Below are positions 13,713-14,370 of a stretch of DNA of 64,000 bases, in pieces. This stretch comes from the human T2T-CHM13v2.0 reference genome, Homo sapiens. The notes under the pieces are model-generated. The model was given only the letters and a program-made list of their open reading frames with translations. It was not told the origin of the DNA and did not search any database. The stretch's first letter is position 1. Every line of letters starts with the position of its first letter. The translations under genes and the position numbers were made by a program. Location of the stretch: contig CP068257.2 in assembly GCA_009914755.4 (NCBI GenBank), positions 15,776,001-15,840,000 on the forward strand, in the 5' to 3' direction.

Positions 13713-14038
13713 GGCCAGGCGCAGTGGCTCACGCCTGTAATCCCAGCACTTTGGGAGGCTGAGGCAGGCGGATCACGAGGTCAGGAGATCGCGACCATCC
13801 TGGCTAACACAGTGAAACCCTGTCTCTACTAAAAATACAAAAAAAAATTAGCTGGGCGTGGTGACGGGCACCTGTAGTCCCAGCTACTCGGGAGGCTGAG
13901 GCAGGAGAATGGCGTGAACCCGGGAGGCGGAGCTTGCAGTGAGCCGAGATGGAGCCACTGCCCTCCAGCCTGGGCGACAGACAGAGACTTTGTCACAAAA
14001 AAAAAAAAAAAAAGAAAAGAAAAGAAAAGAAAAGAAAA
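13713..14038 (+). mobile_element. Alu (Y-like) with long A/(AAAAG)n tail
   Basis: Starts ggccaggcgcagtggctcacgcctgtaatcccagcactttgggaggctgaggcaggcggatcacgaggtcaggagatcgcgaccatcctggctaacacagtgaaaccc and ends ...tgtcacaaaaaaaaaaaaaaaaagaaaagaaaagaaaagaaaagaaaa. Confidence 0.93.
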
Positions 14039-14065
14039 TCTTTTAATGTTGGAATCCCATGTAAA

Positions 14066-14370
14066 TTTTTTTTTCTTTTTTTTTTGAGATGGAGTTTCAC
14101 TCTTGTTGCCCAGGCTGGAGTTCAATGGCACAATCTCCACTCACTGCAACCTCCACCTCCCAGGTTCAAGTGATTGTCGTGCCTCAGCCTCCCAAGTAGC
14201 TGGGATTACAGGTGTGTGCCACCACACCCTGCTAAATTTTTTGTATTGTTAGTAGAGACAGGGTTTCACCATGTTGGCCAGGCTGGTCTTGAACTCCTGA
14301 CCTCAGGTGATCTGCCCACCTCGGCCTCCCAAAGTGCTGGGATTACAGGCATAAACCACCACGCCCAGCC
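14066..14370 (-). mobile_element. Alu (antisense); with the preceding Alu it forms an inverted pair separated by about 28 bp
   Basis: Poly-T, then gagatggagtttcactcttgttgcccaggctggagttcaatggcacaatctccactcactgcaacctcc...gattacaggcataaaccaccacgcccagcc. Confidence 0.92.

What the first reader, a model, noticed from the sequence alone, without database searches (positions are those of the whole stretch)
13713..14370. Closely spaced inverted Alu pairs, which can form hairpins and are recombination-prone
Alu(+) 13713-14038 and Alu(-) 14066-14370 are separated by only about 28 bp. Alu(-) 49519-49830 and Alu(+) 49858-50153 are separated by about 27 bp. Inverted Alu pairs with spacers under 100 bp are strongly depleted genome-wide. 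They form cruciforms and hairpins, causing replication-fork stalling and double-strand breaks. When transcribed they are the main substrates for ADAR A-to-I editing, and when they flank exons they promote circular-RNA back-splicing. Finding two such pairs suggests either that the locus tolerates them, or that the arms have diverged enough (these Alus are moderately diverged) to be stabilised. Other near-inverted neighbours are 29696-30141(+) with 30352-30468(-), and 44443-44737(+) with 44800-45116(-), the latter 62 bp apart.
Basis: partly seen in the sequence, partly recalled or inferred. Interest (0 to 1): 0.5.

Follow-up and report, generated by a model that had tools for sequence, protein, structure and literature searches.

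The report
Ordinary close inverted Alu pairs
The closely spaced inverted Alu pairs are real, but they are what this very Alu-rich stretch of primate DNA should contain by chance; one pair also suggests a simple cause (two insertions at one cut site, on opposite strands) for a known genome-wide excess of such pairs.

Summary
An AluY(+) at 13713-14029 faces an AluS(-) at 14066-14370, tail-to-tail. An AluS(-) at 49520-49830 faces an AluS(+) at 49858-50152, head-to-head, 27 bp apart. The 44443/45116 pair is also real. Arms are 80-82% identical. As single strands they fold into about 260-bp imperfect hairpins (z = -31 to -40).

The pairs are not unusual. Alus make up 30% of the window (76 elements). 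Random placement predicts 3.1 full-length inverted pairs within 100 bp, and 3 are seen. Arm identity is typical of any two Alus in the window. Every arm has its own target-site duplication (TSD), so each pair is two independent insertions.

The claim of strong depletion below 100 bp is overstated. Published depletion is strong only at 24 bp or less. Head-to-head pairs at 27-30 bp are over-represented.

With about 81% identity and poorly paired centres, the pairs lie outside the range that is fragile in yeast. They would be near-optimal ADAR substrates if transcribed, which could not be tested.

By-product: pair 2's spacer looks like two abutting TSDs around TTTT|AAAT. 28 further pairs from contaminating primate DNA show the same anatomy. 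This suggests reuse of a palindromic L1-endonuclease site.

The parts
13698..13712 (+). 5' target-site duplication (TSD) of the AluY: AAAAGAATATCTTTT, preceded by TATATT (an L1-endonuclease-type TT|AAAA site)
   Evidence: Local alignment with 14030-14044, 14/15 identical; sequence.
13713..14029 (+). AluY: body 13713-13989, then an A17 run and a (GAAAA)n tail
   Evidence: blastn against an AluY consensus, positions 1-274, 92.8%; sequence read.
14030..14044 (+). 3' TSD of the AluY: AAAAGAAAATCTTTT
14051..14068 (-). TSD copy on the tail side of the AluS(-): GGAATCCCATGTAAATTT. It lies 6 nt (AATGTT) from the AluY TSD.
   Evidence: Aligns with 14371-14389 GGAATGCCATATAAAATTT.
14066..14370 (-). AluS in reverse orientation: T-tail 14066-14085, body 14086-14370. 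It is the tail-to-tail partner of the AluY.
   Evidence: blastn AluSx positions 1-282, 88.1%. Arm identity to the AluY 0.80-0.82. RNA hairpin -454 kcal/mol, z = -40, 260 inter-arm pairs, 49-nt loop.
14371..14389 (-). TSD copy on the head side of the AluS(-), followed by AATTT (an ATTT|AA nick site)
49520..49830 (-). AluS in reverse orientation (T-tail 49520-49555, body to 49830); left arm of the head-to-head pair
   Evidence: blastn AluSx positions 1-276, 86.6%; sequence.
49831..49857 (.). 27-nt spacer CATCTCGTCTTTT|AAATAAGTATCTCA. The left 13 nt are the probable TSD of the Alu(-), with an outer copy CATCTC..T-run at 49507-49519. The right 14 nt are the probable TSD of the Alu(+), with an outer copy AAACCCTCATATTCTCA at 50150-50166. 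They meet at TTTT|AAAT (49843/49844), an L1-endonuclease consensus on both strands.
   Evidence: Sequence. TSD matches are short and degraded (p = 0.12 and 0.54 without a positional constraint). The same anatomy appears in 19 of 24 non-redundant head-to-head pairs with 19-36 bp spacers, a count that includes this one.
49858..50152 (+). AluS, right arm of the head-to-head pair (body to about 50135, A-tail 50138-50152)
   Evidence: blastn AluSx positions 7-269, 91.3%. Arm identity 0.79-0.82. RNA hairpin -431 kcal/mol, z = -37.
44443..44748 (+). AluS with an (AAAC)n-type tail. TSD AATAAAAGA at 44434-44442 and 44738-46.
44790..45116 (-). AluS in reverse orientation with a (TTTA)n tail; tail-to-tail partner of 44443. 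TSD TGGAATTTATT.TTTAT at 44790-44807 and 45117-45133.
   Evidence: Arm identity 0.79-0.81. RNA MFE -436 kcal/mol.
29686..30467 (.).
   Evidence: Only 118 nt can be aligned, at 75% identity.

Best explanation
These are ordinary products of independent Alu retrotransposition into a very Alu-dense, AT-rich stretch of catarrhine primate (human-like) DNA. Each arm was inserted separately by L1-mediated target-primed reverse transcription (TPRT), and each arm carries its own target-site duplication (TSD).

The number of close inverted neighbours is what random placement gives at 30% Alu content. The arms are as diverged from each other (about 80%) as any two Alus here.

Pair 1 and the 44443/45116 pair (both tail-to-tail) are adjacent by chance plus the shared preference for AT-rich targets.

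Pair 2 (head-to-head, 27 bp) most likely arose when the TTTT|AAAT nick site used by the first Alu was nicked again on the opposite strand. That site survives at the outer edge of the first Alu's 5' TSD. The second Alu then landed head-to-head, with a spacer equal to TSD1 + TSD2 (13 + 14 nt).

Consequences (inferred):
- In double-stranded DNA the pairs are too diverged, and too poorly paired at the centre, to extrude cruciforms at a meaningful rate.
- In long single-stranded DNA, or in a transcript, they would fold into about 260-bp imperfect duplexes.
- If transcribed they would be good ADAR substrates.

Shown: element identity, coordinates, TSDs, arm identity, predicted folds, the chance expectation, and the spacer anatomy across 29 pairs. 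Inferred: order of insertion, site reuse as the cause, low DNA fragility, and editing.
For: - Alu map: 76 elements covering 19.5 kb of 64 kb.
- Monte Carlo: 3.1 full-length inverted pairs expected within 100 bp against 3 observed. For gaps of 30 bp or less, 0.98 expected and P(2 or more) = 0.25.
- Arm identity is 0.80 in all three pairs, at the 61st-64th percentile of 1,540 pairwise Alu comparisons (mean 0.778).
- Separate TSDs exist for all six arms, and pair 1 has different subfamilies, AluY against AluS.
- Folds: RNA -454, -431 and -436 kcal/mol; DNA -245 kcal/mol; z = -31 to -40; 259-269 inter-arm pairs; longest Watson-Crick helix 16-27 bp.
- The nearest perfect 10-bp complementary blocks are 52, 79 and 166 nt apart.
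- Literature on fragility: raising the spacer from 12 to 20 bp gives about 40-fold less recombination. Gross chromosomal rearrangements (GCR) fall 58-fold at 86% identity and 1,087-fold at 75%. Most human inverted Alu pairs are 80-90% identical (PMC10164571). A 52-bp spacer gives no frequent fork stalling in eukaryotic cells (PMC7999016).
- Literature on distribution: I:D is 0.076 only at 24 bp or less, with a head-to-head excess at 24-36 bp (PMC3215922).
- Literature on editing: it is highest for full-length pairs with a 10-50 bp loop (PMC526178).
- Site reuse, spacer anatomy: 19 of 24 non-redundant head-to-head pairs with 19-36 bp spacers have one TT|AA junction leaving 8-20 nt on each side. 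Shuffled spacers give 3.8 +/- 1.7, with 0 of 5,000 reaching 19. The mirror motif AA|TT occurs in 3 of 24 (sign test 3e-5). Half-spacers average 14.4 +/- 2.7 nt.
- Site reuse, TSD checks: TSDs checked against outer flanks end at the junction on both arms in L037 and L019, and on one arm in L016, L018, L027, L031, L035 and L054.
- Site reuse, long spacers: among the five pairs with spacers above 36 bp, the verified TSDs stop short of the other half and leave unassigned sequence between the two sides.
Against:
- The random-placement null ignores real Alu clustering and target preferences.
- For the window's own pair 2 the TSD matches are short (CATCTC; TAT(T)CTCA) and not significant without using their positions. 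Site reuse there rests mainly on the class-wide pattern.
- Any single Alu has a T|A junction at its TSD boundary, so single-arm verifications are only weak support for a shared site.
- The 28 outside pairs come from uncharacterised primate contamination in public contigs. They were selected by exact 11-mer anchors, so older, more mutated Alus are under-sampled.
- Whether the window is transcribed is unknown: no exons or CpG islands were found outside a tRNA gene.
- The yeast fragility thresholds may not transfer quantitatively to human cells. In long single-stranded DNA, pairs above 75% identity still interact.
Confidence: 0.85

Rival explanations
1. The pairs are fragile quasi-palindromes. 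They extrude cruciforms or form lagging-strand hairpins, stall forks and cause breaks, and the locus either tolerates this or is a rearrangement hotspot.
For: - The DNA fold of pair 1 is -245 kcal/mol, z = -31.
- Arms are 80-82% identical, above the 75% at which instability vanishes in yeast.
- In long single-stranded DNA, inverted Alus above 75% identity still drive rearrangements (PMC10164571).
Against: - In wild-type yeast, GCR rates fall 58-fold at 86% identity and 1,087-fold at 75%, even with a 12-bp spacer. Raising the spacer from 12 to 20 bp costs about another 40-fold, and a single mismatch near the centre already reduces activity.
- A 52-bp spacer abolishes frequent stalling in eukaryotic cells.
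- Here the nearest perfect 10-bp complementary blocks are 52-166 nt apart, and the centres are A/T tails or mutated CpG-rich Alu heads.
- The elements are old (7-13% from consensus) and intact with their TSDs, so they have persisted for a long time.
Confidence: 0.07
2. The pairs are retained because they act as functional double-stranded RNA elements in a transcript, for example as ADAR editing platforms, for nuclear retention, or to modulate splicing or back-splicing.
For: - The predicted RNA hairpins have about 260 bp, with z near -40.
- The geometry matches the editing optimum reported by Athanasiadis 2004.
Against: - The count and the arm identity are exactly those expected without selection.
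- No exon lies between or near the arms, and none was detected anywhere in the window.
- Adjacent pairs cannot bracket an exon, so they cannot bring splice sites together.
- From my own knowledge of Zhang et al. 2014 (Cell), not checked here: pairing within one intron competes with the cross-intron pairing that drives circularisation.
- Being edited would not by itself show function, since most intronic inverted Alus are edited.
Confidence: 0.05
3. Pair 2's 27-bp spacing has nothing to do with site reuse. It is a chance neighbour, or it reflects L1 endonuclease being anchored at the 5' end of an existing Alu, or nucleosome positioning, as Cook et al. 2011 suggested.
For: - Chance alone gives about one inverted pair within 30 bp in this window.
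- The TSD evidence for this particular pair is weak.
- Cook et al. proposed anchoring or nucleosome models (supplement).
Against: - The spacer splits 13|14 at TTTT|AAAT, like 18 other non-redundant pairs in the sample.
- The junction has the polarity the model predicts, not its mirror image.
- Verified TSDs of both arms meet at the junction in L037 and L019.
- An anchoring model does not predict that the nick coincides with the older Alu's own TSD boundary, nor a spacer equal to twice the TSD length.
Confidence: 0.2
4. Each pair arose in one event, as an inverted duplication or palindrome formation, or as simultaneous twin insertion at a double nick.
For: The arms are adjacent and inverted. 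A palindromic nick site could in principle be cut on both strands at once.
Against: - The arms of pair 1 belong to different subfamilies, and every arm has its own TSD pair.
- Arm identity is no higher than between random Alus.
- By geometric reasoning, simultaneous priming from both nicks would give tails outward with no TSDs between the heads. That is not what is seen.
- Several outside pairs combine AluJ with AluY or AluS.
Confidence: 0.02

Closest known systems
Closely spaced inverted Alu pairs (IRAlus) of primate genomes, as catalogued by Stenger et al. 2001 and Cook et al. 2011
   Same: Full-length dimeric Alus in opposite orientation, with spacers of tens of bp, arms 80-90% identical, each with its own TSD. 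Pair 2 falls in Cook's 'type 3' head-to-head class (24-36 bp, most pronounced at 27-30 bp).
   Different: Nothing material.
Alu quasi-palindromes used as fragile-site models in yeast (Lobachev et al. 2000 and later work)
   Same: Inverted Alus with a short spacer.
   Different: The model constructs that are strongly recombinogenic are 94-100% identical with a 12-bp spacer. These pairs are about 81% identical, with spacers of 27 nt or more and poorly complementary centres.
ADAR-edited intramolecular inverted Alu duplexes (Athanasiadis 2004; Levanon 2004)
   Same: Two full-length inverted Alus separated by a 10-50 nt loop, the configuration reported as optimal for editing. The predicted duplex is about 260 bp with 14-23 G-U pairs.
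   Different: Transcription and editing of this locus are unknown.
Intronic complementary Alus that promote exon circularisation
   Same: The same kind of pairing elements.
   Different: Those pairs bracket one or more exons from different introns. Here the arms are adjacent, with no exon between them.
Direct Alu pairs formed by insertion into an existing Alu's TSD or A-rich sites (Cook's CLIQUEs, or 'TSD APE')
   Same: Reuse of L1-endonuclease target sites created or preserved by an earlier insertion.
   Different: In the proposed mechanism the same site is used on the opposite strand. This gives an inverted (head-to-head) pair with a spacer of two TSD lengths, not a direct pair with one.

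Membership tests
Alu SINE | About 280-nt dimeric sequence similar to the Alu consensus over its full length | tested here: met
An Rfam SRP model also hits another Alu in the window.
Alu SINE | 3' A-rich tail and flanking target-site duplications starting at a TT|AAAA-type site | tested here: met
   Tails and TSDs were found for all six arms of the three full-length pairs. The TSDs of pair 2 are degraded.
Fragile inverted-repeat quasi-palindrome (yeast Alu-IR model) | High arm identity (about 94-100%; activity is much reduced by 86% and lost by 75%) | tested here: not met
   Arms are 0.79-0.82 identical. Thresholds are from PMC10164571.
Fragile inverted-repeat quasi-palindrome (yeast Alu-IR model) | Very short spacer (about 12 bp) and perfect pairing next to the centre of symmetry | tested here: not met
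   Spacers are 27-62 nt. The nearest perfect 10-bp complementary blocks are 52, 79 and 166 nt apart. Raising the spacer from 12 to 20 bp already costs about 40-fold.
Fragile inverted-repeat quasi-palindrome (yeast Alu-IR model) | Observed breakage, fork stalling or rearrangement at the site | not testable with these tools
   No structural-variant or replication data are available.
ADAR-edited inverted Alu duplex | Two inverted Alus close enough to fold intramolecularly into long dsRNA | tested here: met
   RNA MFE -454 and -431 kcal/mol, z = -40 and -37, 259-260 inter-arm base pairs. The geometry equals the reported optimum.
ADAR-edited inverted Alu duplex | Both arms lie in one transcript and show clustered A-to-G changes | not testable with these tools
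   No expression or editing data. No exon or promoter was recognised in the window.
circRNA-promoting flanking inverted Alus | The arms lie in introns on either side of the circularised exon(s) | tested here: not met
   The arms are separated by only 27-62 nt of TSD and AT-rich sequence, with no ORF or splice-site-bounded exon.
Head-to-head full-length Alu pairs with 24-36 bp spacer (Cook et al. 2011, 'type 3') | Both Alus full length, poly(A) tails pointing outward, spacer 24-36 bp | tested here: met
   Pair 2: 49520-49830(-) and 49858-50152(+), spacer 27 nt. Class definition.

The most novel reading that the evidence does not exclude
The genome-wide excess of head-to-head Alu pairs with 24-36 bp spacers has a simple cause that was not found in the searchable literature. 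The excess is most pronounced at 27-30 bp. Cook et al. [quoted passage not shown]

The proposed cause is as follows. The L1-endonuclease target TTTT|AAAA is its own reverse complement. After a first Alu inserts, the site survives intact at the outer edge of that Alu's 5' TSD. A second nick at the same phosphodiester position on the opposite strand then places a new Alu head-to-head. The spacer equals TSD1 + TSD2, about 2 x 14 nt.

The same logic explains two further observations:
- Same-strand reuse gives the dense class of direct pairs with spacers of one TSD length.
- Tail-to-tail pairs show no such peak.

Pair 2 of this window is one instance of the proposed mechanism.
Probability: 0.4. Interest if true: 0.45.

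Novelty: already known. Interest (0 to 1): 0.25.

Why it matters
The finding itself matters little. Close inverted Alu pairs are a well-catalogued feature of Alu-rich primate DNA. These examples are neither rarer nor more similar than chance predicts. They fall outside the parameter range linked to DNA fragility, and if transcribed they would simply be among the very many edited intronic Alu duplexes.

Two points are worth keeping:
- The common shorthand 'inverted Alus under 100 bp are depleted' is wrong for the 24-36 bp head-to-head class, which is enriched. Scans that flag such pairs as anomalies will produce false alarms.
- The spacer anatomy seen here and in 28 further pairs gives a concrete, cheaply testable explanation for that enrichment: opposite-strand reuse of a palindromic L1-endonuclease site, with spacer = TSD1 + TSD2. 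If confirmed genome-wide, part of the inverted:direct imbalance at short range would be attributable to insertion mechanics and not to post-insertion loss. That affects estimates of how much genome instability inverted Alus have caused.

Tried and rejected
1. Locus and gene identification. I scanned for CpG islands and for stop-to-stop ORFs of 55 aa or more outside Alus. The only CpG-rich patch is at the tRNA gene, and the ORFs look like low-complexity or repeat-derived sequence. No exon candidate was worth one of the capped protein searches. Whether the pairs lie in a transcript therefore stays open.
2. Rfam gave only a tRNA, a U6 pseudogene and an SRP hit on an Alu. Nothing relates to the pairs.
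3. Reading Stenger et al. 2001 and Lobachev et al. 2000 directly: neither paper is held. Their results are cited only through later papers.
4. Four literature searches for a prior statement of the site-reuse explanation, plus a check of the same group's 2013 follow-up paper, found none. The library lacks most subscription-journal papers, so this is weak evidence of novelty.
5. The viral-contig scan for head-to-head Alu pairs gave no hits. The genome-contig scan gave 13 loci, of which only two hold Alus.
6. My search pattern does not match the window's own pair 2 because of one substitution in the anchor (GGGATTGCAGG). I added pair 2 to the sample by hand.
7. The strict ungapped TSD finder missed several arms. 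A gapped re-test with shuffles confirmed some (L016 left, L054 right, and both arms of L019 and L037). Others stayed unsupported (L015 left, L021, L024, L034, L040, and the window's pair 2 without a positional constraint).
8. Rejected ideas:
   - Inverted duplication, because each arm has its own TSDs and pair 1 has different subfamilies.
   - Simultaneous twin insertion, because its geometry predicts no TSDs in the spacer.
   - Homogenisation or selection for divergence between arms, because arm identity is typical of random pairs.
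Full report
**What is there.** The window is catarrhine primate (human-like) DNA with 41.6% G+C. It is extremely rich in Alus. These merge into 76 elements covering 19.5 kb, or 30% of the window, and 56 of them are near full length.

- Pair 1 is an AluY(+) with body 13713-13989 (92.8% to consensus) and an A17 plus (GAAAA)n tail. It faces an AluS(-) with body 14086-14370 (88.1%) and a T-tail from 14066. 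The orientation is tail-to-tail.
- Pair 2 is an AluS(-) at 49560-49830 (T-tail from 49520) facing an AluS(+) at 49858-50135 (A-tail to 50152). The orientation is head-to-head and the spacer is exactly 27 nt.
- The 44443/45116 pair is also confirmed.
- The '29696-30141 / 30352-30468' pair is really a full Alu plus two free left monomers. Only 118 nt align, at 75% identity.

**Arm similarity and folding.** Gapped global alignment of each arm with the reverse complement of its partner gives these identities:

| Pair | Arm identity |
|---|---|
| Pair 1 | 0.80-0.82 |
| Pair 2 | 0.79-0.82 |
| 44443/45116 pair | 0.79-0.81 |

Folded as single strands, the pairs give near-complete hairpins:

| Pair | Molecule | MFE (kcal/mol) | z-score |
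|---|---|---|---|
| Pair 1 | RNA | -454 | -40 |
| Pair 1 | DNA | -245 | -31 |
| Pair 2 | RNA | -431 | -37 |
| 44443/45116 pair | RNA | -436 | not computed |

- The hairpins have 259-269 inter-arm base pairs, of which 14-23 are G-U. The longest uninterrupted Watson-Crick helices are only 16-27 bp.
- The centres pair poorly. The nearest perfect 10-bp complementary blocks are 52, 79 and 166 nt apart.
- In pair 1 the inner ends are an A/GAAAA tail against a T-tail. In pair 2 they are the mutated, CpG-rich Alu heads.

**Origin.** Every arm has its own target-site duplication (TSD).

- AluY: AAAAGAATATCTTTT at 13698-13712 and AAAAGAAAATCTTTT at 14030-14044.
- AluS(-) of pair 1: GGAATCCCATGTAAATTT at 14051-14068 and GGAATGCCATATAAAATTT at 14371-14389.
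- The 44443/45116 pair: AATAAAAGA at 44434-42 and 44738-46, and TGGAATTTATT.TTTAT at 44790-807 and 45117-33.

All TSDs start at TT|AAAA-type sites, the L1-endonuclease signature. Each pair is therefore two independent target-primed reverse transcription events, not an inverted duplication. With TSDs assigned, the stretch between the tails of pair 1 is 39 nt: TSD (15) + AATGTT (6) + TSD (18).

**Is it unusual?** No.

- I placed the window's own Alus at random, without overlap and with random orientation. This gives 5.9 +/- 2.3 inverted neighbours within 100 bp among all elements (5 observed) and 3.1 +/- 1.7 among full-length elements (3 observed).
- Arm identity (0.80) sits at the 61st-64th percentile of all 1,540 pairwise comparisons among the window's full-length Alus (mean 0.778, sd 0.056).
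- The arms are therefore neither homogenised nor unusually diverged. Neither 'the locus tolerates them' nor 'divergence has stabilised them' is needed.

**What the literature says.**

- Cook et al. 2011 (PMC3215922) analysed all adjacent full-length Alu pairs. The inverted:direct ratio is 0.076 for spacers of 24 bp or less. The four pair types have similar frequencies from 51 bp upward. The 24-36 bp range is the only one where the ratio exceeds 1 (1.053). Head-to-head pairs at 27-30 bp outnumber both direct types together. Pair 2 is therefore in an enriched class, not a depleted one.
- On fragility, in yeast a change of spacer from 12 to 20 bp cuts Alu inverted-repeat recombination about 40-fold. 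Gross chromosomal rearrangements fall 15-, 58- and 1,087-fold at 94, 86 and 75% identity. A single mismatch near the centre already matters. Most human inverted Alu pairs are 80-90% identical (PMC10164571).
- A 12-bp spacer stalls forks in eukaryotic cells, but a 52-bp spacer does not do so frequently (PMC7999016).
- I infer that pairs with about 81% identity, spacers of 27 nt or more and unpaired centres are close to inert in duplex DNA. They could still anneal in long single-stranded DNA.
- On RNA, Athanasiadis et al. 2004 (PMC526178) found editing highest for two full-length inverted Alus with a 10-50 bp loop. These pairs would be excellent ADAR substrates if they lie in a transcript.
- I could not establish whether they do. 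No exon or CpG island was found apart from a tRNA gene.
- The pairs cannot promote back-splicing in the usual way, because no exon lies between the arms.

**By-product: the anatomy of pair 2 and a test on other loci.** The 27-nt spacer reads CATCTCGTCTTTT|AAATAAGTATCTCA (49831-49857).

- The left 13 nt resemble the sequence just outside the Alu(-) T-tail (CATCTC...T-run, 49507-49519).
- The right 14 nt resemble the sequence after the Alu(+) A-tail (AAACCCTCATATTCTCA, 50150-50166).
- The spacer therefore looks like two abutting TSDs. They meet at TTTT|AAAT, which fits the L1-endonuclease consensus on both strands.
- For this particular pair the TSD matches are short and degraded. They are not significant unless their exact positions are taken into account.

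To see whether the pattern is general, I scanned public contig collections for inverted Alu 5' anchors (GGGATTACAGG N59-89 CCTGTAATCCC, which corresponds to spacers of 15-45 bp).

- This recovered 62 loci, of which 36 hold Alus on both sides of the match. They are primate DNA contaminating metagenome and 'bacterial' assemblies.
- Four of the 36 have overlapping or truncated arms and no measurable spacer, and four more are duplicates of other loci. With the window's pair added, there are 29 non-redundant head-to-head pairs.

Results from this sample:

- 21 of the 29 spacers fall in 24-36 bp, against 42% expected if lengths were flat (p = 9e-4). This reproduces the published peak.
- Among the 24 pairs with spacers of 19-36 bp, 19 have a TT|AA junction leaving 8-20 nt on both sides. 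Base-shuffled spacers give 3.8 +/- 1.7, and 0 of 5,000 shuffles reach 19.
- Three of the five exceptions are one substitution away from such a junction.
- The mirror motif AA|TT, which has the same composition, is central in only 3 of 24. The exclusive counts are 16 against 0 (sign test 3e-5).
- The half-spacers average 14.4 +/- 2.7 nt, the usual Alu TSD length.
- TSDs verified against outer flanks end at the junction on both arms in L037 (16-17 + 13 nt, spacer 29) and L019. They do so on one arm in L016, L018, L027, L031, L035 and L054.
- In pairs with spacers above 36 bp (L014, L042, L043, L045, L058), the verified TSDs stop short of the other half and leave unassigned sequence between the two sides.
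- Several pairs combine AluJ with AluS or AluY, so the two insertions were separated in time.

**Proposed mechanism (inferred).**

- The nick site used by the first Alu survives at the outer edge of its 5' TSD.
- Because TTTT|AAAA is its own reverse complement, the opposite strand offers an equally good site at the same position.
- A second insertion there lands head-to-head, with a spacer equal to TSD1 + TSD2, about 28 nt.
- Same-strand reuse would give the known dense class of direct pairs separated by one TSD length.
- The tail side does not regenerate a full site, which fits the absence of a tail-to-tail peak.
- Cook et al. discussed nucleosomes or L1 endonuclease anchored to the Alu 5' end, but not this mechanism.
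- Four searches of the held literature found no statement of it. Stenger 2001 and Lobachev 2000 are not held, so prior description cannot be excluded.

**Caveats on the by-product.**

- Any single Alu has a T|A junction at its TSD boundary. Only the both-arm verifications, together with the published spacing peak, argue for a shared site.
- The sample is small and was selected by exact anchors.

**Verdict.** The feature is an ordinary, already known kind of repeat arrangement. The only element of wider interest is the testable site-reuse explanation for the head-to-head spacing peak.

Noticed in passing
window 33885-33958 (-): An apparently intact tRNA-Gly(GCC) gene (Rfam 66.6 bits; ARAGORN anticodon GCC). 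A TTTT run lies about 13 nt downstream. It sits in the only CpG-rich patch of the window (33801-34000). From memory, its sequence is identical to the human tRNA-Gly-GCC-1 family.
   Followed up: partly
window 10641-10741 (+): A diverged U6 snRNA-like sequence (Rfam 64.8 bits) directly next to an Alu. It has many substitutions relative to canonical U6, so it is most likely a retro-pseudogene.
   Followed up: partly
window 23161-23765 (-): A nested insertion. A full AluSx (23400-23680) sits inside an older AluJo, which is split into 23177-23380 (consensus 82-279) and 23682-23765 (consensus 11-94). The roughly 12-nt overlap in consensus coordinates would be the TSD.
   Followed up: no
One is a 40-nt Alu fragment(+) 8 bp from a full Alu(-). 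The other is a full Alu(-) 49 bp from a free left monomer(+), head-to-head.
   Followed up: no
window 13996-14029; 49134-49200; 50400-50427; 44795-44835: Alu tails have grown into microsatellites: (GAAAA)n on the AluY of pair 1, a long (CTTT)n/(TTTC)n-type tract on the Alu at 49204-49479, (GTT)n on the Alu at 50429, and (TTTA)n on the Alu at 44836.
   Followed up: no
window 4101-4502 (+): The longest non-Alu ORF (134 aa). From memory, its translation looks like the spurious peptides encoded by MaLR/THE1-type LTRs (…[21 protein letters not shown]…), so it is probably an LTR and not an exon.
   Followed up: no
L008 (CBDIHZ010000027.1, Roseivirga MAG, 12.6 kb) and L005 (NZ_QGDC01000020.1, Mucilaginibacter hurinus, 289 bp): Contigs in GTDB species-representative 'bacterial' assemblies that consist of primate DNA. 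L008 carries at least five Alus. This is host or laboratory contamination in public genomes. 34 of the 49 matching metagenome contigs are likewise primate DNA.
   Followed up: partly
L005, L030, L038, L052: Four matches where the extrapolated Alu heads overlap (a 'negative spacer'). One arm is 5'-truncated or one Alu is inserted into another. They were excluded from the spacer analysis and not examined further.
   Followed up: no
window 49498-49512 / 49842-49856 and 49831-49846 / 50165-50180: The flanks and spacer of pair 2 share extra short similarities (TTAAAT...ATCTC, and CATCTCGTCTTTTAAA ~ CATGTAGTTTTTTAAA). These are not positioned as TSDs. The pre-insertion target may have been a short tandem repeat with a period of about 22-25 nt, or the matches may be chance in AT-rich sequence.
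   Followed up: partly
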